A stretch of DNA of 56,632 bases from Prorocentrum cordatum (Eukaryota). The position numbers were made by a program, and so were the translations under genes. This document shows positions 15,891-56,632 of this stretch, piece after piece. The first letter of the stretch is position 1, and each line of letters starts with the position of its first letter. The notes under the pieces were generated by a model. The model searched no databases. It saw only the letters and a list, made by a program, of their open reading frames with translations, and had not been told where the DNA came from. The DNA lies in assembly GCA_963575745.1 (NCBI GenBank), contig CAUYUJ010000080.1:62001-118632 (forward strand). The letters are read 5' to 3'.

Positions 15891-16199
15891 ATGAGGCACT
15901 CGCAGCTGCATATGGTTGGGTCCTTCGTCAGGCAAATTTCCTGACGTCACTCGGCCGCTGGATGTGTGTGTGTGTGGGTGTGTGTTTGTGTGCGTCATGC
16001 ACGCGTGCGAAGGTGATACAGGCACCCCGTATAATAAGGACGCGCAGAAAGGATGCAAGGGCCTCAGAAGGCCATTTCAACACTTCGCGAGCGGGGCGCG
16101 GTCAGCGAAAGCGGCCAAAGGCGGACCGAAGGGAACGGATGCAATGATAAACTTGGGAAAACGTGTCATCCTTACTTACTGTGCCGGTTGACTGTACGC

Positions 16200-16249
16200 T
16201 GTGTGTGTCGTGTGTGTGCGCGTGTGTGCGTATGCGTGTGCGTGTGCGT

Positions 16250-16323
<74 letters not shown>

Positions 16324-16407
16324 GTGCGTGTGTGTGCGTGTGTGTGGTGTGTGTGGTGTGTGTGTGGTGCATGCGTGTGTGAATGTGAATGTGAATGTGT
16401 GTGTGTG

Positions 16408-16449
<42 letters not shown>

Positions 16450-16930
16450 GGGGTTGGGTGTGGGGGGGGGGTGTGGGTGCGTGCGTGCGCGTGTGCGTGT
16501 GCGTGTGCGTGCGCGCGCGCGCGCGTGCGCGTGCGCGTGCGCGTGCGCGTGCGTGCGCGTGCGCGTGCGCGTGCGCGTGCGCGTGCGCGTGCGCGCGTGC
16601 GCGTGCGCGTGCGCGTGCGCGTGCGCGTGCGCGTGCGCGTGCGCGTGCGCGTGCGCGTGCGCGTGCGAGTGCGCGTGCGCGTGCGCGTGCGTGCGTGTGC
16701 GTGTGCGTGTGCGTGTGCGTGTGCGTGTGCGTGTGCGTGTGCGTGTGCGTGTGCGTGTGCGTGTGCGTGTGCGTGTGCGTGTGCGTGTGCGGGTGCGGGT
16801 GCGGGTGCGGGTGCGGGTGCGGGTGCGGGTGCGGGTGCGGGTGCGGGTGCGGGTGCGGGTGCGCGTGTGCGGGTGCGGGTGCGGGTGCGGGTGCGGGTGC
16901 GGGTGCGGGTGCGGGTGCGGTGTGTGTGTA

Positions 16931-16977
<47 letters not shown>

Positions 16978-17041
16978 GCGTGTGTGTGCGTGGATCTGCG
17001 TGTGTGTGTGTGTGTGCGTGTGTGTGTGTATGTGTGTGTGG

Positions 17042-17088
<47 letters not shown>

Positions 17089-17124
17089 TGTGTGCGTGTG
17101 CGTGTGTGTGCGTGTGTGCGTACG

Positions 17125-17156
<32 letters not shown>

Positions 17157-17340
17157 TGTTTGTGTTTGTGTTTGTGTTTGTGTTTGTGTTTGTGTTTGTG
17201 TTTGTGTTTGTGTTTGTGTTTGTGTGTGTGTGTGCGTGTGTGAGTGTGTGTGTGTGCGAGTGTGCGTGTGTATATGCGTGTGCATGTGCGTGTGCTTGTG
17301 CGTGTGCGTGTGCGTGTGTGTGTGTGTGTGCGTGTGCGCG
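16200..17340. repeat. Compound GT/GC microsatellite: (GT)n, (GTGCGC)n, (GTGCGT)n, (GCGGGT)n, (GCGT)n, (GTTTGT)n
   Basis: Read directly from the sequence. Confidence 0.97.
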
Positions 17341-17624
17341 AATGGTGCGATCCCTGGAGGCCGAAACCGAGGAGAAGCGCCAGGATCGACACGAGATCCC
17401 GCCTCGCGAAGTCTGAACACGTCAGGAGTGGCAGCCCCCCCCCCCCCCTGCGGGGGCGGCAGCCCGAGAAGGACGCACGCAGACAGCCACTCCGAGAACC
17501 ATATGCCCCCTCCCCCCAGTTCGCGAGGCCGCTGGCACGGGCCGCGAGCGCTCGCGTAGGGACGCTCTCTCGAACGCCGCGTGAGGTTGTGTGCGCGTGC
17601 GCCTTAGCATAATTAGCTCCAGAT

Positions 17625-17855
17625 TGAGCAGGGACCGACCGTCCCAGCATTCCTACAGGCCTACCACGACATGTTCTTAGAACCCCAGAAAATGTCCTTA
17701 GAACGAAAACAATGTGCTCAGAACATCAACCCGATGGGTGAAAACGACACAGACTCGGCCAGAAGTGTTCTGAGAACACTTCGTTGAAACCACAAAAGGT
17801 TCTTAGGACATTCCTTGGTGGGCCTGCAGGCGAGCCAGGACGCGCCACTCCTTGA
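17625..17855. mobile_element. MITE-like family 2 copy
   Basis: TGAGCAGGGACCGACCGTCCCAGCATTCCTACAGGCCTACC ... GGTGGGCCTGCAGGCGAGCCAGGACGCGCCACTCCTTGA. Confidence 0.75.
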
Positions 17856-18454
17856 CCTGAGGCCGCAGCTGGTCGAACACTTCAGGCCGTCACTTCTGTC
17901 ACGGCGCGCGAAGGTGTCAAGGTCTCTGCCTCGCTCCTGGCTTCGCTCGCCCTCCTTTCTCGGGTCGGGCGAACATGGGGAGGGGGGTCGCAAAGAGGGG
18001 ACAGCGGATCAGCTAAGGTAGCTGATTTTCCCGACGCCTCCCGGCGCCAGAGGCGCGAATGTGCGCCCGGCGACGGGGCCGAAACCAGCTGCATCCAGCA
18101 AATGTCGTGACCTCCCCCCTTCCCTGCTTCTCGTCCGATCCGTCTTGGAATAGACGCCGTGGTTGTTGGCTAAGGCGATGGTGGTTACTTCTGTATGCCT
18201 GCGCACTCACAAACAACCCAGACCAGCCTGACCACGATTTCACAATAGACTTGGCATTGCTGCTGGCTGGTTTCGCAGACGGTCTACAGAGCTATATTAC
18301 CAAATTCTGATTAGGAGTTTGAGGCCCATCAGAATGAGGGGGCCGAACGGTCATTCACTGTCCCTGGGCGCGTGGCTGAAGTGAGGTTCTGCGGTGCGGA
18401 TTACTGTTGTTGTTTTTTGTTTGTTGCTGGTGTTTCTTGTCAACGTCTCCCCTG

Positions 18455-34129: not shown

Positions 34130-35413
<1,284 letters not shown>

Positions 35414-35434
35414 CCGTAGCCATTTTGGCTCAAG
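35414..35434 (+). other. Dinoflagellate spliced-leader (DinoSL) sequence at the 5' end of the LINE
   Basis: Exact 21-nt match CCGTAGCCATTTTGGCTCAAG to the DinoSL consensus DCCGTAGCCATTTTGGCTCAAG. Followed by GCTGAG rather than the GT donor of an SL-RNA gene, and preceded by (ACT)n. Confidence 0.95.
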
Positions 35435-35597
35435 GCTGAGCCCGCATAGGCAATCACGGAAGCTGCTGTCACCGTAGCAGGCAGAGCTGTTCAGCTCGGC
35501 ATCCATCTTTCGCGCTGTTCTGGTCCGCCCCAGTCAGCGCCTGCCTCCCGCTGCCCGCGGGTGAGCAGACTCTTCGTACGAGCCCCTGTCGGTGCCC

Positions 35598-36839
35598 ATG
35601 GTCCCAGGTGTCGGAGGGGCTGGAGGTAGCCATGGTGGTTGGACGTACGATCCGTGGATCAAGGTCGGCCGCGGTGGCGCTAAGGCTGGCCACGTTCCTC
35701 GTCGTGGGCGTCCTTACACTGTGTGCTCTTGTGGGCACTGGACGTGGGACGACTTGCTTGCCAAGCGCAAGTGGCTTTGTGTCGGATGCCAGGACATCTG
35801 CGATCCCTACGGCCACTCCACCCGGGACACCTACTACCCGATCGGTTGCAACGGCTCGGCGATGGCCTTGGCCGACGACCCGCATGGTGGTGACGGTGGT
35901 GCCATGCCTAAGGGGCGCTGGCGCCGCCACGCGGAGGAGCAGGCCCAGAAGGAGGCCACCATCAACTTGTCGTCCGAGGCGCTGGCAGCCCTTCGGCAGG
36001 CGGCGGGGCAGCTCTCCCAGCCAGAGGCGCAGAAGCTCTTGGCGCCCTTCCAGCCGCCCGCGCCCGCTGCTGCGCCCATGTCGGCTCAGGCATCCTGGAA
36101 CCGTGCCAACCAGATTCGCAAGGCTGCGTCAGACCGTTTGGATAAGGCTCTGCTCAAGCGCGTCGACTTGGACAAGCAAGTCGCAGAGTCCAACAAACTA
36201 CTTGACGACCTCATGGCGAAGGACATCGCTGCTGAGGAAGCCCTGGCGGAGGCTACCCGCGTCTTGGCAGCAGGTGTTATCAAGCCGTGCGAGTCCAAGG
36301 TCAACACCATCAACATCACATCTCTGTTCAAGGATTCTGCAGACGATCTCGCGCTGGAGTTCGGTGAGGACATCGACCTCTCAGGCCCCGCCTTCTCCGA
36401 CGCTGACCGCGCAGACTTCCAGAAGTTCCAGGGCGAGCAGTCGGCCAAGATCAAAAAGCTTCTTCATGATGCTCTCACGACGGTTAAGACGCAAGCTGAT
36501 GCACATCAGCAGGAGTATCTTACCCGCATGGGAGAGCTTCGCAAGAAGCGCAAGGTTGGCGAGGCCGGCTCAGGCTCGGTGGCCGTGGCGGCGGAGGCCC
36601 CCTCTGAGGCGAGCCATGGCGCTCAGGCAGCGGCTCGCGCCCCCGCTGCCGGGGCCAGCTCCCTACCAGAGGCGGCGTCCTCCCAGCCCGCCCCCGGGCC
36701 TGCCGAGCCACATGCGCCCGCTGACAAGTCTGACAGGAAGCTCCAGGCGGATCAGCTCAAGACTGAGCTCCTGGCCAAGGCTAAGCAGAAGGCAGAGCAG
36801 GCCAAGAGCGAGGCCAAGGGCGAGAAGCCACGCTCCTAA
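35598..36839 (+). CDS. LINE ORF1 protein (N-terminal Cys cluster, Ala/Lys/Glu-rich coiled-coil-like body)
   Basis: First ATG after the SL (35598), ~413 codons to TAA at 36837-36839. Motif CSCGHWTW...WLCVGC may be a Zn ribbon. Helical segments such as SDRLDKALLKRVDLDKQVAESNKLLDDL. Position upstream of the pol ORF is typical of ORF1. Confidence 0.8.
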   Translation: MVPGVGGAGGSHGGWTYDPWIKVGRGGAKAGHVPRRGRPYTVCSCGHWTWDDLLAKRKWLCVGCQDICDPYGHSTRDTYYPIGCNGSAMALADDPHGGDGGAMPKGRWRRHAEEQAQKEATINLSSEALAALRQAAGQLSQPEAQKLLAPFQPPAPAAAPMSAQASWNRANQIRKAASDRLDKALLKRVDLDKQVAESNKLLDDLMAKDIAAEEALAEATRVLAAGVIKPCESKVNTINITSLFKDSADDLALEFGEDIDLSGPAFSDADRADFQKFQGEQSAKIKKLLHDALTTVKTQADAHQQEYLTRMGELRKKRKVGEAGSGSVAVAAEAPSEASHGAQAAARAPAAGASSLPEAASSQPAPGPAEPHAPADKSDRKLQADQLKTELLAKAKQKAEQAKSEAKGEKPRS

Positions 36840-39800
36840 CGCCACGAGGTCCCAGGGCCTCCGGGCCAAGAGGGCGCGTCGCCCTCTTGCGGGGCCCCCG
36901 CCGGGGAGCGAGCCCCCAGTTTCAGGCGAAGTTTGCAAGACGCTCAAGTTCATTTACTCCAACATTTCTTGTTGGGGCCCCACTGCGGCCAGATGGATTG
37001 CCCACACCGACGCTGATGTGGCGCTGTTCGTTGAACACCGCCAGCGGGGCAGCAAGTTCTCTGACATGGTCAAGAAGTTGCACAAGCTCGGCTGGCGAGT
37101 CGTCGCTCGAGAGGCACACCGCACCGACGCAGACGATGCCTCTTCGGGGGTGTTCGTGGTTGCACGATCCCACCTCGGCCTGACGAGCCAGACGTTTTCT
37201 GCAGGTGAATGGTCGGAGGCAGGCTCCTCCCGCTGGCTCATTTGTACGCTGCGCCTCCGGCACGTCTCGCTTATGATTGTGCTTGTGTACCTGCACACGG
37301 GGGGGCAGCTCAACGGAGACAACTTGAGGCTTCTCGCCGATGTTGGTGCACACCTGAGCGTTGCAGGTGCGCCCGCCTTTGTCGTCGGCGATTGGCAGGT
37401 CGCTCAAGAGGTTATTGAAGAGTCGGGTTGGCTGGAGCCTCTTGGCCTCGTTCCTGTTCCGATGCCTGGAGTCTCGGTCACGTGCACCGGAGTCTCGACC
37501 AGCCGCATCGATTATGCCTTGTGTTCTACAGTTTTTCTGTCTGCCTGCCGTTTTGCAGGGACCGTGCCAGTGCCGCGGGGCACTCATGCAGCTTTAAGCT
37601 TTGACATATTGGCCACGCCTCGAGCCATAATGGTTTGGAAGGCCATGCGGCCGAAACCCCTTCCTGTCAAGGGCATTGCAGCACCACTGGCTCCGTGGGC
37701 GCACTTCCTTGTGCAGGCGCGACTCCTCAAGCATCACCGCCCTGCTTTCTTTGAGGCTAACTTTCCTCAGGCCGCTTTGCTGCGTCTGCACCACGACAAT
37801 TCGGACGTTTCTGTTGCCCTAGGAAACAGTCTTTCCTGTTGGGTCCTCGCTCTCGAGCTGGAGGCGTTCTCCAAGTTGGGCTTTTCCCAAGAAGATGTGT
37901 TTCAGTATGTTGGGCGTGGCCAACAACCCAGATTGCGTGAAGTTCCTCTGATAGCTGCTCAGGTCGAGGGCCCGTGCCTCTCCGATCGAGCCGCTCGCAT
38001 GTGGCAAGCATCATATGTACAGCTGAAATTTCTCATGAAACTCGTGCCTTCTGATTCTGACCCTACCCTTCCCCCTCAGCCTGCATTGGCTCACGCTGCG
38101 CAGTTTCGGTCTACCCTGACTTGGCTTTCCCAGCAGGTACCCCCGGAGCCTTCGGACACTCGCGATGCGAAGCAGGATGGGCTTTTTAATTTGTGGTCGG
38201 CCCGATTTAAAAATATCGCCTCCACTCCCTACGACGGGCTGGAGGACCTGCTCGAGGAATTACGCCAGATGGCTCATCAGTCGCACCGCGAGGCCCTCAA
38301 GGCGCAAAACGCATCGTGGCAGGCATGGTTGAAATCTGCCCTGTATCGCAGCGCAGGCCCGGCGCACCGATTGCTCCGCACGCCATTCGACCCTCTCCCT
38401 CCTGACAAAATTGGTGTCGACGGCCCATGTGCTGCTCTTGACCAGATGCTGGATTTCGAAGCCGCCGCTTGGTCGGCCATCTGGCAGCAGCACAGCCTTG
38501 AGGGCGCTAGAGCGGCGTTAGCTGACCTGCGTAAGCGTGCCTGGGAGTCTCCGCGTTTGCCACCGATAAGTATGCACATGTTGGAAAGAGCCCTTGCTTC
38601 GATGCCGGACGCTAGGGGGCAAGGTTTGGATCACCTGGAGCCCCGCCTGGTCAAGGAAGCCAGCCTGGAAGCTAAGCAACATTTGATTGACATGTTGCAT
38701 AGCATTGAGGAGCAGTGTACAATCCCTTTCCAGCAGTTGTTCGCCCTCATTGCTTTGATTCCTAAGCCTGACGGGGGTAAGAGACCTATCGCTCTCCTCG
38801 GCTTCGTCTACTCCCTCCACCTCCGCATAAGGAAACCCCTTATCACCCAATGGGACCGTGGAGCCCATGGGCCCTGGGACGCCACGGTTGGAGGCTCCGC
38901 GGATTTTGCAGGCTGGGTAGACGAGCTTGAAACTGAGCTCGCCCTCCACGCAGGTTTTCAGGTAGGCGGCCTTTTGCTGGATATGAAGAAATACTACGAT
39001 CAGGTGTGCTTAGAAGATTTGGTCGAGGCAGCAGTTGCTCTCGACTATCCTCTCCGCCTCCTTGTCCTAGCTATCGACATTTATTCAGGCGTCCGTCACA
39101 TTTCCATGGATGGCGCGGTGCACCCCGGGATCTTAGCTCATGGAGGCATGCTCGCTGGGTGCGGCCAGGCTACTTCTCTTGCGCGTGCGCACCTCCATGA
39201 GCCCCTCGGGTGTGCTTACGGCTCTGTCTCAGGCCTCCGCCTTCGCGAGTGGGTGGACGATGTTTCTGCCAGGCTCTTCGGCACGCATTACAGTATTTCG
39301 GCAACGTTTCCTACCTTGCTTCGAGCCCTTTTGGTCAGCCTGAAACGTCGCCGTTGTCAGCTGGCCGTTGATAAGTCTCATCTGTTGGCGTCGTCGCCAG
39401 AGCTTCGCTCAGAGCTTTCTGCTGCTGCCGTCGCCGAGGGGTGTGCATTCACGGTTTCTTTAGCCGCCAGGGACCTGGGGCATGATACGGCTCTCGGAGC
39501 GCGCCGCACGGTAGCAGTTCGCAAGGAGAGGTTTTCCAAGGGCCGGCACGCTACGTGTAGGATTTTCCAGTTCTCCAAAACAAATCGCAGCGCTTCCAAA
39601 CTGTTTTACCCGAATGCTTTTGCGAAGGCCATGTGGGCCCCTGAGCTCCAGGGAGTTTCCCCCTCAATGTTGCGGGGGCTCCGAAGCATGGCCCGGGCTG
39701 CTAGCAAGAGCCCTCAGAAGGGTGTTTGTGCTACATCTGCTATTCGGCTCACCTTTGGTCTGGGGCAAGACCCAGTACAGCTGCATTATCGCAAGATTGT

Positions 39801-41721
39801 TAAGTCCTGGTTCTCACGCATTGCAGGCAACCAGAAGCTTCTTGAGCGTTTGGCTCGATTCTGGGATGCCTCGCTCGAGAAGGTTCGTCGAGGCTGGGCT
39901 TGGGTCCGAGGTCCGATGGCTGCCTTTCAGGCCTCCTTGCTCGCCATTGGGTGGGCTTGCCCCTCTCCCTTTTCCTTGGTCTCCCCTTCTGGCGACTACT
40001 GGGAGATGAAAGCGGGCGGTCGAGGACCCTTGGGACCCCTTTTGGAAGCCTTCGACGAATCGATCGACGCCCTGCAGTGGAACCAGGCAGCAGAACATCT
40101 CGACGGCAAAGGAATCCAGGGCCCGGTTTCGCTTTTCCACGTTTGGGAGCTCCTGGCCTCTCTTGAGAAGGAAGGCCGTCGAGATGTGAGTTCTATGGTC
40201 AGGTTGATCGCTGCCGGCGGCTACTGGACGGAGGAAAAGAGGCATGCTGAGCAGTTGGCCCCTGACCCCCTCTGCCGCCGCTGCAAGCGTGACCCTGAAT
40301 CTTCATCTCATCGCTTCTGGTCTTGCATGTGCAACGATAGCTGTACAGTTCCAGATATTGCCGATTCTCAGCATTTGCGCCATGCGGCGCTCCAGGAAGT
40401 GTCAGACTTCCCATGCTTTTGGGTCCGGGGGCTCATTCCCCTCTCTTGGTTTCGGTTGCCGCCCCTCCCCGATTCGAGGTTGCTCCGTGGCGTCCGCGTG
40501 CCTGGGCCCCTCGTGCCGGGATCTCTCCCCGGGGGATTGTACGGCACCGATGGGTCGGGAGGCCCTTTCTCTAAGCTGCCTGTGCTCAGGCGCGTGGCTT
40601 TCTCTTTCGTCAGGATGGTCCCAGGGTCTGATTTTGACTGGGATTGTGCTGTTACGGGAGTTCTGGACTCCAAGAGGCAGACTGTTCCACGTGCAGAGCT
40701 TGCGGCCATCGTTGAGTGTCTGAGGCTGGTCGACCCTTCCCAAGATCTGCACGTGGTCAGTGATCATCATAACATAGTCCGGGCCTTCTTTTCAGGCAAG
40801 GCCCACTCTTCTAAGCTGGCTAATCATGACTTGTGGTGGGAGTTCTGGGAGCTGCTCGACTCTCGTACCGCCTCCTTCCGCCTCTCTCATGTTCCGTCAC
40901 ACTTGCTTGAAGACCCCGTGAAGTTTGCGCGCTTCTGTGATTCAGCTAATTGGGACCATGTCGTCTTGAATGCCCTCGCAGATTCGTTGGCTGACGCACG
41001 AGCGGAAGAGTGCCAGGTTCCAGCGGATGTTGTCCGCGATCACAACGATTTAGTTCAGCAGGCTTGTGCAATTCTTAAGCGAAATGCGTGTATCATCCTT
41101 GAGTGTGCCGCTCTTAAGGTGGAGACAGACCGGCGTTTGAACAAGCAGCCCATTGACTTGGTGCTAAGGCGCCGCAGGTGGATCGAGTCAGATGTTCGGT
41201 CCAGCTCTCACCATTGGTCGCTCTCTGAAGGTGTGTGGTCTTGTTCACTTTGCCAGGGCCAGGTCAAGGACACCGCCCCTTCTCTGCGCGCTCGCCTTGC
41301 TTCCACATGCCTCGCCACCTTGGAGGGAGGAGGGGGGCTGTGTGTGCGTGAGCGTGTGTGTGAGGGCGGGGACGGGGGAACATTTTCGAAGAAATGGGCC
41401 CGTCCAGGCAGGCAGCTTCTGCCTCGAGACGAGTCCCTGTGGCGGTCCCTTCAATTGGACCCCATGCCAATTCGAGTTTCTCCTTGGATTTCCGGCAAGC
41501 CTGTGCACCCCACGCACGTGCTGTGGCGTAAGGCCTCCTTTTACTTTTGTGGCGAGTGCGGGTCTTGGGCCAACAGATCTCCCAGTGCTTTCTTGAGGGG
41601 TCCGTGCCCTGCCGTCACGCTCGGACCGCATGCTGTAACCAAGGCGCAGTTGGAAGTCTTGCAGAGGATTTGTAAAGGCCTTCCTCCAGCCAAGACCGTC
41701 GCATCTTGGGCTGATGCTTAA
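36712..41721 (+). CDS. LINE ORF2 polyprotein: APE endonuclease, reverse transcriptase, Zn finger, RNase H, C-terminal Cys/His motifs
   Basis: APE ~36943-37610: IYSNI, LFVEHR, VVGDWQ, SRIDYAL, GTH. RT ~38600-39480: LIPKPDGGKRPIALL, LLDMKKYYDQV, GMLAGC, WVDD at 39250-39261, RDLG. CRRC...HRFWSC Zn motif. RNase H ~40540-41010: TDGS, RAEL, VSDH, VPSH, NALAD. C-terminal CSLC and HPTH...CGECG. The start is uncertain: 36712 is the last in-frame ATG before the APE domain, but the frame is open from at least 35608. Confidence 0.92.
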   Translation: MRPLTSLTGSSRRISSRLSSWPRLSRRQSRPRARPRARSHAPNATRSQGLRAKRARRPLAGPPPGSEPPVSGEVCKTLKFIYSNISCWGPTAARWIAHTDADVALFVEHRQRGSKFSDMVKKLHKLGWRVVAREAHRTDADDASSGVFVVARSHLGLTSQTFSAGEWSEAGSSRWLICTLRLRHVSLMIVLVYLHTGGQLNGDNLRLLADVGAHLSVAGAPAFVVGDWQVAQEVIEESGWLEPLGLVPVPMPGVSVTCTGVSTSRIDYALCSTVFLSACRFAGTVPVPRGTHAALSFDILATPRAIMVWKAMRPKPLPVKGIAAPLAPWAHFLVQARLLKHHRPAFFEANFPQAALLRLHHDNSDVSVALGNSLSCWVLALELEAFSKLGFSQEDVFQYVGRGQQPRLREVPLIAAQVEGPCLSDRAARMWQASYVQLKFLMKLVPSDSDPTLPPQPALAHAAQFRSTLTWLSQQVPPEPSDTRDAKQDGLFNLWSARFKNIASTPYDGLEDLLEELRQMAHQSHREALKAQNASWQAWLKSALYRSAGPAHRLLRTPFDPLPPDKIGVDGPCAALDQMLDFEAAAWSAIWQQHSLEGARAALADLRKRAWESPRLPPISMHMLERALASMPDARGQGLDHLEPRLVKEASLEAKQHLIDMLHSIEEQCTIPFQQLFALIALIPKPDGGKRPIALLGFVYSLHLRIRKPLITQWDRGAHGPWDATVGGSADFAGWVDELETELALHAGFQVGGLLLDMKKYYDQVCLEDLVEAAVALDYPLRLLVLAIDIYSGVRHISMDGAVHPGILAHGGMLAGCGQATSLARAHLHEPLGCAYGSVSGLRLREWVDDVSARLFGTHYSISATFPTLLRALLVSLKRRRCQLAVDKSHLLASSPELRSELSAAAVAEGCAFTVSLAARDLGHDTALGARRTVAVRKERFSKGRHATCRIFQFSKTNRSASKLFYPNAFAKAMWAPELQGVSPSMLRGLRSMARAASKSPQKGVCATSAIRLTFGLGQDPVQLHYRKIVKSWFSRIAGNQKLLERLARFWDASLEKVRRGWAWVRGPMAAFQASLLAIGWACPSPFSLVSPSGDYWEMKAGGRGPLGPLLEAFDESIDALQWNQAAEHLDGKGIQGPVSLFHVWELLASLEKEGRRDVSSMVRLIAAGGYWTEEKRHAEQLAPDPLCRRCKRDPESSSHRFWSCMCNDSCTVPDIADSQHLRHAALQEVSDFPCFWVRGLIPLSWFRLPPLPDSRLLRGVRVPGPLVPGSLPGGLYGTDGSGGPFSKLPVLRRVAFSFVRMVPGSDFDWDCAVTGVLDSKRQTVPRAELAAIVECLRLVDPSQDLHVVSDHHNIVRAFFSGKAHSSKLANHDLWWEFWELLDSRTASFRLSHVPSHLLEDPVKFARFCDSANWDHVVLNALADSLADARAEECQVPADVVRDHNDLVQQACAILKRNACIILECAALKVETDRRLNKQPIDLVLRRRRWIESDVRSSSHHWSLSEGVWSCSLCQGQVKDTAPSLRARLASTCLATLEGGGGLCVRERVCEGGDGGTFSKKWARPGRQLLPRDESLWRSLQLDPMPIRVSPWISGKPVHPTHVLWRKASFYFCGECGSWANRSPSAFLRGPCPAVTLGPHAVTKAQLEVLQRICKGLPPAKTVASWADA

Positions 41722-41799
41722 ATTTTCTTCCCTAGCGGCCAGTCCCTGGCAGGTTCTCTGCCCTTGGAGCCTGGGTGTTAGCGGTGCACTGTAAAAAAA

Positions 41800-41839
<40 letters not shown>

Positions 41840-41849
41840 GCTACTACTG

Positions 41850-41916
<67 letters not shown>

Positions 41917-42198
41917 AATTACTACGACGACCGACGACCGACAACACCAACAACAACAATCATTTTAAGACTGTTCGCCCTTATATGCTCGAGTGTCCAA
42001 TAACGCGGATTTCCCGAACCCTCGATACCCGCCCTCTTCGTCTTCGATCGAACCCCTTTGGGGGGGTCTACCTTTCTTCCCTGCAGGCCGGGCCCCGGCA
42101 AGCGGCGGGGCGGCCGCGGACCGTCGGCCTGGCCAGCGGCAGCGCTGATCGGCGGGGCGGCCGCGGACCGTCGACCCGACCCCAACAGGGGACCGACC

Positions 42199-42229
<31 letters not shown>

Positions 42230-42939
42230 AGACGACGGCGACGACGGCGACGACGAGCGAAAGCGAGAGCGAGAGAGAACGACAGCAGGGCCACGAAGGG
42301 CACGAAGTAGGCCACGAAGGGCGACAGCGGGGACACGAAGGGAATGCGTATGGGGCCACGAAGAGTGCGAACGAGCGGGGGCCACGAAGTGCAGATAATG
42401 CGGGGCCACAGAAGGCAACTATGGGGCCACTGAGGGTAGCAACTGGGCCACGTAGGACAATGAGGGGGACACAAATGGCGACAGCGGGGCCACGAAGGGC
42501 ATGCACATGTGGCCACAACATGCGTGATTCCTGGGTGCCTGGGTATCGGGAGCGCGGCGCGTGGGCAAATTGCAGGAAGTTCCAACGCAAGGCTATTCTT
42601 CAGTAAGTTGCAAGCAAGTCTCCAGCGAGAGCGCGACTCCAGGGCTCCGGGACAGCGATTCCTGAATACATTGTGAGGAAGTCCCAAGCGAGAGCGCGTT
42701 TTTGTTGAATAAAATGCGAGGAAGTCTCGGGCGGGAGCGGGGGTCCTGCCTAAACTGTAAGGAAGTCTACAGCGGGAGCCGTTGTTGTTGTAACCCCGGG
42801 GCTAGGGGGCCAGTTTGAGCAGGCAGATTTCCCCTGTCAAAAAACAGGGTGCTAGCGTCGAGGGGCACAGTTTGATTGAGAAGAACAGTATGCACCGGTG
42901 TGGGGGGAGCAACAATAGTTATTCTTCAGAAATGAGAAC

Positions 42940-56632
<13,693 letters not shown>

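What the first reader, a model, noticed from the sequence alone, without database searches (positions are those of the whole stretch)
35413..35600. A LINE whose 5' end is the host spliced leader: trans-splicing may define the retrotransposon's end
Seen: the element starts exactly with the DinoSL, pure (ACT)n lies upstream, there is only one SL copy (no stacked relict SLs), and no SL-RNA intron follows. Known: dinoflagellate mRNAs receive this leader by trans-splicing and retrocopies keep it; NeSL and SLACS/CZAR elements instead insert into SL-RNA genes. Inference: this LINE's RNA was trans-spliced and reverse transcribed to its very end. The integrated SL ends in AG and could act as the acceptor in the next round. 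Read-through transcription plus trans-splicing would then regenerate a capped, full-length RNA without an internal promoter.
Basis: partly seen in the sequence, partly recalled or inferred. Interest (0 to 1): 0.9.

Follow-up and report, generated by a model that had tools for sequence, protein, structure and literature searches.

The report
LINE retrotransposon capped by host spliced leader
An intact 6.4-kb LINE retrotransposon sits inside an (ACT)n microsatellite and starts with the dinoflagellate spliced leader, so its RNA was trans-spliced like a host mRNA and copied back into DNA almost to its 5' tip, which links LINE activity directly to the spliced-leader-tagged "retrogenes" of dinoflagellates.

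Summary
A perfect 21-nt DinoSL lies at 35414-35434 and is the only copy in the window. It has (ACT)n directly upstream, no relict leader and no SL-RNA intron.

It opens a 6.39-kb unit of 5'UTR, ORF1, ORF2, 3'UTR and A7, after which the same microsatellite resumes. A family profile shows that ORF2 is an APE-endonuclease / reverse transcriptase / RNase H protein. There are no LTRs.

The best explanation is a trans-spliced, polyadenylated LINE mRNA that was reverse-transcribed nearly to its cap and inserted into a microsatellite.

Public DNA contigs show several related copies. One independent metagenome contig crosses the (ACT)n-SL junction. A near-identical copy carries 16 extra bases exactly between the leader and the body. 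The SL/body junction therefore varies, as expected from repeated trans-splicing, and the window's junction is not the family's fixed end.

A second LINE of the same ORF2 superfamily also begins microsatellite | SL (L258). Two other SL retrocopies show the same SSR | SL ... A4-5 | SSR architecture.

Still untested are reuse of the leader's terminal AG, a promoter-less cycle, and expression. Four literature searches found no paper describing an SL-led LINE. I rate this a new variant of a known kind.

The parts
34186..35412 (+). Upstream part of the (ACT)n microsatellite domain; perfect (ACT)22 at 35347-35412 abuts the element.
   Evidence: Perfect ACT-phase runs cover 9.7% of the window. All lie at 34186-56632 and all but 16 bases are on the + strand.
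35413..35413 (+). Extra C at the position of the leader's first (D) base. It is either junction filler or a homopolymer-length difference.
   Evidence: It is left out in the single X2 contig that crosses the junction (table 4). C precedes CCGTAG in only 6 of 96 retrocopy-like loci.
35414..35434 (+). DNA-encoded dinoflagellate spliced leader (DinoSL), bases 2-22, 21 of 21 matching.
   Evidence: unique in the window, 0 matches in 100 shuffles. The sequence is as given in PMC7245778 and PMC5585692 (passages read).
35435..35597 (+). 5' UTR of the element (163 nt). Another copy has 16 more bases at its very start.
   Evidence: A 16-nt insertion sits behind 35433 in 1 contig each of X1 and X2. Diverged relatives keep only the block at about 35537-35568.
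35598..36839 (+). ORF1, 413 aa plus stop. It has a Cys-rich motif (CxC...CxxC) near the N-terminus and then an Ala/Glu/Lys-rich region. No Pfam family matches.
36712..41721 (+). ORF2, counted from the nearest in-frame ATG, which overlaps the ORF1 end; there is no ATG between the ORF1 stop and the endonuclease. Parts: APE-like endonuclease about 36940-37600, RT core about 38758-39387 (motif A Asp at about 38980, VDD at about 39256), Cys/His knuckle about 40273-40330, RNase H about 40540-40910. The frame is open from 35440.
41722..41792 (+). 3' UTR (71 nt).
41793..41799 (+). A7, the remnant of the poly(A) tail and the 3' end of the insertion.
41800..41916 (+). (TAC)n, which is (ACT)n resuming directly after the tail. 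A target-site duplication of 3k+1 bases is possible but cannot be read in a repeat.

Best explanation
The unit 35413/35414-41799 is a young, intact, autonomous APE-type LINE with ORF1 and an ORF2 carrying endonuclease, reverse transcriptase and RNase H.

Proposed mechanism:
1. A source copy was transcribed. How is not known.
2. The pre-mRNA received the 22-nt DinoSL by SL trans-splicing upstream of ORF1, like host mRNAs.
3. It was polyadenylated 71 nt after the ORF2 stop.
4. Target-primed reverse transcription started within the first A's of the tail at a nick in an (ACT)n microsatellite.
5. The cDNA ran to within one base of the cap, so the leader became the DNA 5' end of the new copy.

What is shown:
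- the domain content
- the boundaries SL...A7 inside one repeat array
- the absence of SL-gene sequence
- the existence of related copies with a different SL/body junction

What is inferred:
- the trans-splicing event itself
- the priming mode
- whether SL-bearing copies can in turn act as sources
For: Boundaries:
- A perfect 21-nt SL at 35414-35434, unique in the window, with 0 of 100 shuffles matching.
- The unit ends in A7, and (TAC)n resumes at once.
- There are no direct repeats of 20 nt or more within the unit, so no LTRs.

LINE identity:
- ORF2 has 4274 relatives at E<=1e-3, of which 289 are at <=1e-30.
- A 21-sequence profile that includes the window's ORF2 hits human LINE-1 ORF2p at 4.8e-17, R2 RT at 7.8e-9, RNase H domains at 7.2e-11, and L1-type endonucleases and ExoIII at 2.9e-6 to 2e-5.
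- Of the 21 aligned members, 11 match Pfam RVT_1, 10 match RNase_H and 6 match Exo_endo_phos.
- The catalytic Asp columns (D631, D723/D724 in the numbering of the window's ORF2 translated from 37090, as used in alignment A1) are invariant, including in the window's sequence.

Not an SL gene: the comparison with 25 SL-RNA introns is at shuffle level, and Rfam gives 0 hits.

A real genomic junction: a contig of an independent marine metagenome (X2) crosses the (ACT)n-SL junction (table 4).

Family and repeated SL addition:
- In X1, 140 contigs were laid, in identity classes 29 / 28 / 39 / 44 (>=99, 95-99, 90-95, <90%).
- One 791-nt X1 contig has 1 other letter over 35418-36182 but carries a 16-nt insertion exactly at the SL/body boundary. 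The same insertion is in one X2 contig (tables 1, 4, 8).

Generality:
- L258 reads (AGAGAGAC)n | SL | ORF1 with a RanBP2 zinc ribbon | one open frame ending in Exo_endo_phos (5.9e-9) and RVT_1 (6.1e-12). It is 28% identical to the window's ORF2.
- L189 and L185 read (CA)n | T+SL ... about 3.3-3.5 kb ... A4-5 | (CA)n.
Against: - No RNA evidence. No listed run is on record as RNA, and the one guessed RNA run gave only short, diverged pieces.
- Only one full copy was seen end to end.
- The base at the leader's first position is C, which the canonical leader does not have.
- A target-site duplication cannot be read.
- In the 16-nt-longer copy, the bases before the window's junction are CG/GG, not AG. 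The short form is therefore not explained by a canonical acceptor in that sequence as it stands.
- The window's ORF2 alone reaches no Pfam family at E<=0.001. Alone it gives only RVT_1 0.16, RNase_H 0.0068 and zf-RVT 0.075, and no PDB hit better than 0.86. The domain calls rest on the family profile.
- SL-led LINEs were not common among the loci I could fetch: 0 of 119 IMG/VR SL loci (3 query proteins), 0 of 126 metagenome SL loci (154 query proteins) and 1 of 19 genome contigs SL loci. Only 4 and 7 of the GC>=0.45 SL sites in the first two sets have 2.5 kb or more downstream.
- In L258, the 4.7 kb between the SL and the endonuclease has no relatives. Its unity with the LINE rests on an open frame of 1168 codons, against a shuffle maximum of 609, and on the lack of any A-run of 6 or more, or any SSR, in between.
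Confidence: 0.85

Rival explanations
1. The leader is a by-product. The family is propagated by master copies that have their own, longer 5' region or promoter. Trans-spliced RNAs are occasionally retrotransposed, and SL-bearing copies such as this one are dead ends that play no part in the life cycle.
For: - The 16-nt-longer junction form shows that family sequence exists upstream of the window's first body base.
- Diverged relatives in X2 and X17 have different sequence upstream of about 35533-35537 (table 7).
- The window copy has a single leader and no relict, as expected for a first-generation copy.
- In trypanosomatids, which also trans-splice, LINEs use an internal promoter that gives unspliced transcripts (PMC1874656 and PMC8190864, abstracts in the listing).
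Against: - Both junction forms seen at high identity carry the leader.
- The copy is intact in both ORFs.
- An unrelated member of the ORF2 superfamily also starts with the leader (L258).
- No copy lacking the leader was actually seen. However, the contig tables were cut: 71 loose ends and 182 pieces were not shown.
Confidence: 0.4
2. The element is a site-specific LINE of SL-RNA genes, like NeSL/SLACS/CZAR, and the leader at its 5' end is part of a disrupted SL-RNA gene.
For: LINEs of that kind exist in other trans-splicing organisms.
Against: - Both flanks are (ACT)n.
- No SL intron is present after the leader, compared against 25 real SL-RNA genes.
- Rfam gives 0 hits in the window.
- The endonuclease is APE-like and N-terminal.
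Confidence: 0.02
3. [quoted passage not shown] Alternatively, it is a cDNA or assembly artefact.
For: Template jumps at LINE 5' ends are known (recalled). A unit bounded by SL and a poly(A) remnant is also what a cDNA looks like.
Against: - The leader ends exactly at its splice donor and nothing of another mRNA follows.
- The unit lies inside a 56-kb contig with the same repeat on both sides.
- An independent metagenome contig crosses the 5' junction.
- The tail is only 7 A.
Confidence: 0.05

Closest known systems
DinoSL-tagged retrogenes ('mRNA recycling'; Slamovits & Keeling 2008 as cited in the papers read; Song et al. 2017, PMC5585692)
   Same: A DNA-encoded leader at the 5' end of a retroposed, polyadenylated transcript. 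The same SSR | SL ... short A run | SSR architecture is seen here in L189 and L185.
   Different: Here the retroposed mRNA encodes the endonuclease and reverse transcriptase itself. Song et al. report the GO term 'RNA-dependent DNA replication' enriched among DinoSL retrogenes but treat it as a sign of the driver, not as LINEs starting with the leader (passages read). [quoted passage not shown]
SymbioLINE / SymbioLINE-Dnmt of Symbiodinium (de Mendoza et al. 2018, PMC5890265)
   Same: A dinoflagellate LINE with ORF1 plus an ORF2 bearing Exo_endo_phos, RVT_1 and RNase_H, and with conserved UTRs (figure legend read).
   Different: Those elements are described as having TSDs and no poly-A tail, and some carry a DNMT in ORF1. 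The passages shown for my search terms do not mention a spliced leader. The window's ORF1 has no Pfam domain, and the element ends in A7. Sequence relatedness was not tested.
NeSL-1 / SLACS / CZAR (LINEs inserted in SL-RNA genes; recalled)
   Same: A non-LTR element physically associated with the host spliced leader.
   Different: Those elements interrupt the SL exon of SL-RNA genes and use a restriction-enzyme-like endonuclease (recalled). This one carries a whole leader as the 5' end of its own RNA, lies in a microsatellite, and has an APE-type endonuclease.
L1Tc / ingi with the Pr77 internal promoter (PMC1874656 and PMC8190864, abstracts only)
   Same: APE-type LINEs in a host where essentially all mRNAs are SL trans-spliced.
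   Different: Pr77 produces abundant unspliced transcripts, so the leader is avoided. Here the leader is incorporated.
Microsatellite-targeting LINEs (R1-clade Waldo/Mino, Kibi/Koshi, Dong; recalled)
   Same: Insertion within a simple-sequence repeat, with the repeat on both sides.
   Different: Target specificity of this family is not shown. (ACT)n makes up a large share of this part of the window, and the SSR type differs between the SL retrocopies seen.
dinoRNAV (+ssRNA virus) transcripts and EVEs with a 5' DinoSL (PMC10235124 and PMC9651163, passages read)
   Same: A selfish genetic element that carries the host leader at its 5' end. L067 here is such a contig, with RdRP_1 at 4.9e-7.
   Different: That is an RNA virus whose integration is thought to be mediated by host retroelements. 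Here the retroelement itself carries the leader.

Membership tests
APE-type non-LTR retrotransposon (LINE) | Reverse transcriptase domain with catalytic Asp residues | tested here: met
   The family profile hits LINE-1 ORF2p at 4.8e-17 and R2 at 7.8e-9. RVT_1 matches 11 of 21 aligned members. D631 and D723/D724 are invariant, including in the window. The window sequence alone gives RVT_1 at E=0.16 over 192 of 205 profile positions.
APE-type non-LTR retrotransposon (LINE) | Apurinic-endonuclease-like domain N-terminal to the RT | tested here: met
   Profile positions 8-217 hit L1-type endonucleases and ExoIII at 2.9e-6 to 2e-5. Exo_endo_phos matches 6 of 21 members. The window's own sequence does not reach Pfam significance on its own.
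APE-type non-LTR retrotransposon (LINE) | No terminal repeats; ORF1 upstream of ORF2; A-rich 3' end | tested here: met
   0 direct-repeat families of 20 nt or more within the unit. ORF1 is at 35598-36839 and ORF2 runs to 41721. A7 is at 41793-41799.
APE-type non-LTR retrotransposon (LINE) | Target-site duplication | tested here: inconclusive
   Both flanks are the same trinucleotide repeat, so any duplication of 3k+1 bases would be invisible.
DinoSL-tagged retrocopy (mRNA recycling) | DNA-encoded DinoSL at the 5' end of the unit, not followed by the SL-RNA intron | tested here: met
DinoSL-tagged retrocopy (mRNA recycling) | Poly(A) remnant at the 3' end | tested here: met
   A7 is followed by the resumed repeat. 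L189 and L185 have tails of similar length, A4-5.
DinoSL-tagged retrocopy (mRNA recycling) | A parental copy without the leader | not testable with these tools
   No genome is held for the window. The contig tables were cut.
SL-RNA gene | Leader followed by a GT intron with the conserved ...GCAGGCCTTTTT end | tested here: not met
   25 of 25 SL-RNA genes fetched have it. The window continues GCTGAGCCC and aligns at shuffle level.
NeSL / SLACS / CZAR | Insertion inside SL-RNA genes; restriction-like endonuclease (features recalled) | tested here: not met
   The flanks are (ACT)n. The endonuclease is APE-like.
SymbioLINE-Dnmt | DNMT domain in ORF1 | tested here: not met
   No Pfam family matches ORF1 at E<=0.01.
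Microsatellite-specific LINE | Copies consistently in one kind of repeat | tested here: inconclusive
   The window copy and the X2 junction contig are in (ACT)n. The first 10 letters of the X1 long-form contig did not align to the (ACT)n flank.

The most novel reading that the evidence does not exclude
This LINE lineage has handed the definition of its 5' end to the host. Any read-through transcript is trans-spliced upstream of ORF1, so every full-length copy is reborn with a capped leader. That leader also carries the TTT(T/G) motif proposed as the dinoflagellate core promoter (Song et al. 2017). The same enzyme, with the same preference for microsatellites and short A tails, would then be the long-sought machinery that makes the thousands of DinoSL-tagged retrogenes.
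Probability: 0.2. Interest if true: 0.85.

Novelty: new variant of a known kind. Interest (0 to 1): 0.6.

Why it matters
Dinoflagellate genomes hold thousands of retrogenes tagged by the spliced leader, but the papers I read say the machinery is unknown.
- Song et al. [quoted passage not shown] - The preprint 10.1101/783902 calls retroposition and retrotransposition independent.

The element here is an intact autonomous LINE that carries the leader. It shows the same insertion signature as SL retrocopies of other genes: a microsatellite on both sides and a short A tail. That makes it a concrete, testable candidate for this machinery.

It also shows how a LINE can acquire a capped, defined 5' end in a genome with few conventional promoters.

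The enrichment of microsatellites directly 5' of genomic leaders (8 of 81 loci against 11 of 1980 random positions) is a second testable lead.

Tried and rejected
Whole genome:
- None is held for this window, so no census of copies was possible.

Earlier notes of this scan:
- Nothing turned up by place, sequence, relatives or words.

RNA:
- No RNA holder is listed for the element.
- X17, guessed to be RNA, gave 9 short pieces at 90-99% identity with joints, so it was not used.

Single-sequence searches:
- The window's ORF2 and ORF1 alone gave 0 Pfam families at E<=0.01.
- ORF2 alone gave no PDB match better than E=0.86.
- The word-indexed protein search found only 2 relatives.

Searches for related loci:
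- ORF1 gave no confirmed relative in viral contigs (41 pattern matches) or metagenome contigs (594 pattern matches).
- Alignment A2 gave none in viral contigs.

LINEs downstream of exact leaders:
- 0 of 119 IMG/VR loci (3 queries).
- 1 of 19 genome-contig loci.

Other negatives:
- A possible origin of the 5' UTR, or of the 16-nt insert, from the SL-RNA intron was rejected.
- The window holds no other copy or remnant of the family.
- 22 long ORFs outside the element gave 0 Pfam families, so no upstream gene could be named as a source of read-through.
- The L258 region between ORF1 and the endonuclease has no relatives.
- The window's exact ORF1 and ORF2 proteins are not in the protein collection.
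- ORF1 of the window and ORF1 of L258 are not significantly alike (E=0.86).

Literature:
- Four full-text searches and one on other taxa were run, and passages were read in 14 papers.
- None states that a LINE begins with the DinoSL.
- Supplementary tables, for example the retrogene lists of Song et al., were not opened and may list RT genes with leaders.
Full report
**What is in the sequence**

The 21 invariant bases of the dinoflagellate spliced leader, CCGTAGCCATTTTGGCTCAAG, occur once in the window, at 35414-35434 on the + strand. There is no other match at up to 3 mismatches, and none in 100 shuffles.

The base at the leader's variable first position (35413) is C, whereas the canonical leader has T, A or G there. 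Among 96 retrocopy-like genomic leaders that I fetched from public contigs, the preceding base is T in 54, A in 30, G in 6 and C in 6.

Directly upstream lies a perfect (ACT)22 (35347-35412). It belongs to a degenerate (ACT)n domain that starts at 34186 and runs to the end of the window. It is interrupted only by the element and by about 1 kb of other sequence.

There is no relict leader.

The bases after the leader (GCTGAGCCC...) are not an SL-RNA intron:
- 25 SL-RNA genes recovered from metagenome contigs all continue GT[AT][AC]...GCAGGCCTTTTT.
- The window's next 90 bases align to them no better than shuffled sequence: score 16 against a mean of 17.6, with 252 of 300 shuffles at or above 16.
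- Rfam finds nothing in the window.

**The unit that the leader opens**

The order is:
- a 163-nt 5' UTR
- ORF1 (35598-36839, 413 aa, a Cys-rich motif followed by an Ala/Glu/Lys-rich region, no Pfam family)
- a second frame open to 41721
- a 71-nt 3' UTR
- A7 (41793-41799)
- (TAC)n immediately afterwards, which is the same repeat resuming

No ATG lies between the ORF1 stop and the start of the endonuclease. The nearest in-frame ATG (36712) overlaps the end of ORF1. The unit has no terminal repeats. No other copy or remnant lies in the window.

**It is a LINE**

The ORF2 sequence alone is too divergent for Pfam:
- 0 families at E<=0.01
- in pieces, only RVT_1 at 0.16, RNase_H at 0.0068 and zf-RVT at 0.075
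- no PDB match better than 0.86

It nevertheless belongs to a very large family, with 4274 representative proteins at E<=1e-3 and 289 at <=1e-30. The best full-length relatives are 26-36% identical.

A profile of 21 aligned members (A1) gives these hits:
- human LINE-1 ORF2p at 4.8e-17
- R2 reverse transcriptases at about 1e-8
- retroviral and cellular RNase H at 7e-11 and weaker
- L1-type endonucleases and exonuclease III at 3e-6 to 2e-5

Of the 21 members, 11 match RVT_1, 10 match RNase_H and 6 match Exo_endo_phos. The motif A and motif C aspartates are invariant columns that include the window's sequence.

So this is an APE-type non-LTR element with an RNase H domain and both ORFs open.

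**What the boundaries mean**

A unit that begins with the leader, ends in a short A run and has the same repeat array on both sides is the footprint of a trans-spliced, polyadenylated RNA. That RNA was inserted by reverse transcription into a pre-existing microsatellite and copied to within a base of its cap.

This is the architecture of the DinoSL-tagged retrogenes of dinoflagellates (passages of PMC5585692, PMC7245778 and PMC12014239). The difference is that the RNA here encodes the retrotransposition enzymes themselves.

The alternatives fare badly:
- The flanks are not an SL-RNA gene.
- Nothing of another mRNA follows the leader, as a template jump would leave.
- A contig from an independent marine metagenome (X2) crosses the (ACT)n-leader junction, so the junction is genomic (table 4). 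That contig lacks the C at 35413.

**Other copies**

No genome is held for the window, so I laid public contigs on 35398-41821.

The best DNA holder (X1, 78% of sampled words, possibly the source of the window) gave 140 contigs. They fall in four identity classes: 29 at 99% or more, 28 at 95-99%, 39 at 90-95% and 44 below 90%. There are therefore several related copies of different ages.

The informative result concerns the junction. One 791-nt X1 contig matches 35418-36182 with a single other letter. It nevertheless has 16 extra bases exactly between the leader and the first body base. One X2 contig has the same insertion (tables 4 and 8).

An indel at precisely that boundary, between two copies that otherwise differ by about 0.1%, is what alternative trans-splice acceptor use in a common precursor would produce. 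It is hard to explain otherwise. It also means that the family's RNA extends further 5' than the window's copy.

Two caveats apply:
- In the longer form, the two bases before the window's junction are not AG.
- The contig tables were truncated, with 71 loose ends and 182 pieces not shown, so I could not see what precedes the leader in that copy.

The alignment of that contig starts at the AG of the leader (35418), with 10 unaligned letters before it. That pattern fits a leader-plus-relict arrangement (...CTCA|AGCCATTTT...) and the way k-mer contigs break in shared sequence. This is an inference, not an observation.

More diverged relatives in X2 and X17 share only the block at about 35537-35568 of the 5' UTR (table 7).

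**Is it general?**

I scanned three public collections for the exact leader and searched the loci with ORF2-family proteins:

| Collection | SL loci | Query proteins | Loci with a LINE on the leader's strand |
|---|---|---|---|
| IMG/VR | 119 | 3 | 0 |
| genome contigs | 19 | 154 | 1 |

Few of these loci could have shown one. Only 4 (IMG/VR) and 7 (metagenome) of the GC>=0.45 SL sites have 2.5 kb or more downstream.

The positive case, L258, is a 9.1-kb, 71% GC contig in a MAG labelled bacterial. It reads:
- (AGAGAGAC)n at 1-116
- leader at 117-137
- a 93-nt UTR
- ORF1 with a RanBP2-type zinc ribbon (1.4e-7, above Pfam's cut-off)
- 15 bases later, one open frame to the end of the locus

The last 758 residues of that frame carry Exo_endo_phos (5.9e-9) and RVT_1 (6.1e-12). 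They are 39% identical to family member P0099 and 28% identical to the window's ORF2.

The 1168 codons before the endonuclease have no relatives. The frame is nevertheless far longer than in 200 shuffles (maximum 609), and no A-run of 6 or more, and no repeat, separates it from the leader.

I take L258 as a probable second, independent SL-led LINE. It again abuts a microsatellite.

**A recurring insertion signature**

Among metagenome loci with GC>=0.45 and at least 20 bases upstream, 19 looked like SL-RNA genes and 81 like retrocopies; 6 were skipped for short flanks. In 8 of the 81, a perfect microsatellite of 12 bases or more ends within 4 bases of the leader. The control is 11 of 1980 random positions in the same loci.

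I hand-picked 15 loci with a repeat upstream. In two of them the same repeat recurs downstream, directly after a short A run:
- L189: (CA)n | T+leader ... 3.26 kb ... A4-5 | (CA)n
- L185: the same pattern with 3.47 kb

Their ORFs match no Pfam family.

The window's LINE therefore shares its insertion signature with leader-tagged retrocopies of other genes.

**What remains open**

I have no RNA evidence of any kind. I also cannot say whether SL-bearing copies are sources of further copies.

Host retrocopies fetched here show the other outcome, a relict made by the AG inside the leader, in 10 of 96 loci.

Song et al. proposed that the leader's TTT(T/G) acts as a basal promoter for retrogenes. 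The same idea could apply here and is equally untested.

No gene could be recognised upstream in the window, so read-through cannot be assessed.

**Comparison with what is in print**

Five full-text searches and passages read in 14 papers gave no statement that a dinoflagellate LINE begins with the leader. The closest are:
- Song et al. 2017, where an RT-related GO term is enriched among leader-tagged retrogenes
- de Mendoza et al. 2018, whose SymbioLINEs have the same ORF2 domains but are described with TSDs and without poly-A tails, with no mention of a leader in the passages found
- work on dinoRNAV, an RNA virus with a 5' leader

[quoted passage not shown] In trypanosomatids, LINEs use an internal promoter that gives unspliced transcripts (abstracts). 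I did not open supplementary tables.

**Verdict**

- The core inference, a trans-spliced LINE RNA copied to its end, is well supported (0.85).
- The proposed self-renewing, promoter-less cycle is possible but untested, and the variable junction argues against its simplest form.
- This is a new variant of known things: LINEs, and leader-tagged retroposition.
- Its value is as a concrete candidate for the enzyme behind dinoflagellate mRNA recycling.

Noticed in passing
L120-L264 (metagenome and genome-contig loci with an exact DinoSL); examples L173, L178, L189, L185, L235, L249, L258: Genomic leaders of retrocopy type often abut a microsatellite on their 5' side: 8 of 81 loci against 11 of 1980 random positions, by a strict perfect-repeat rule. 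In L189 and L185 the same (CA)n resumes after an A4-5 tail. This suggests that leader-tagged retroposition in dinoflagellates prefers simple repeats.
   Followed up: partly
L258:1-7137 (9096-nt contig in a MAG labelled Pseudomonadota): A probable second SL-led LINE: (AGAGAGAC)n | DinoSL | ORF1 with a RanBP2 zinc ribbon | long ORF ending in Exo_endo_phos and RVT_1. GC is 0.71. It is probably eukaryotic DNA binned into a bacterial MAG.
   Followed up: partly
L001-L119 (IMG/VR), e.g. L011, L013, L051, L106: The exact DinoSL is encoded many times in AT-rich 'GVMAG' giant-virus MAG contigs, directly upstream of ORFs. It is preceded by recurring AT-rich motifs (e.g. TTTTTATTTTTAAATATAAATTTTA | SL). 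These are either viruses that encode the host leader at gene starts or AT-rich dinoflagellate DNA binned as viral.
   Followed up: no
L067:1-5319: A contig that ends in the DinoSL and encodes a 788-aa ORF with a viral RdRP_1 domain (4.9e-7). It looks like the leader-bearing dinoflagellate +ssRNA virus described in PMC10235124.
   Followed up: partly
L247 (a 5.3-Mb chromosome of a MAG labelled Ekhidna sp.) and L253: An exact 21-nt DinoSL lies inside long contigs labelled bacterial. It could be chance, a chimeric assembly or transferred DNA.
   Followed up: no
window 36712-36940: ORF2 has no ATG between the ORF1 stop (36837-36839) and the endonuclease. The nearest in-frame ATG overlaps ORF1 by about 127 nt, in the +1 frame. 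Translation would therefore need an overlapping start, reinitiation or a frameshift.
   Followed up: no
window 34186-56632 and 41917-42960: A domain of 22 kb or more is rich in (ACT)n on one strand only, with strongly negative GC skew. An island of about 1 kb inside it holds imperfect repeats of a GGGGCCACGAAGG-like unit and (GAC)n.
   Followed up: no
window 16001-18000: A composition outlier, with GC skew +0.32 and AT skew -0.40 in a 2-kb bin.
   Followed up: no
P0142 (125 aa): A protein 73% identical to the start of the window's endonuclease comes from a EukProt transcriptome labelled as a Pyramimonas culture. This hints that a close relative is transcribed somewhere. It may be cross-contamination of that data set.
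   Followed up: no
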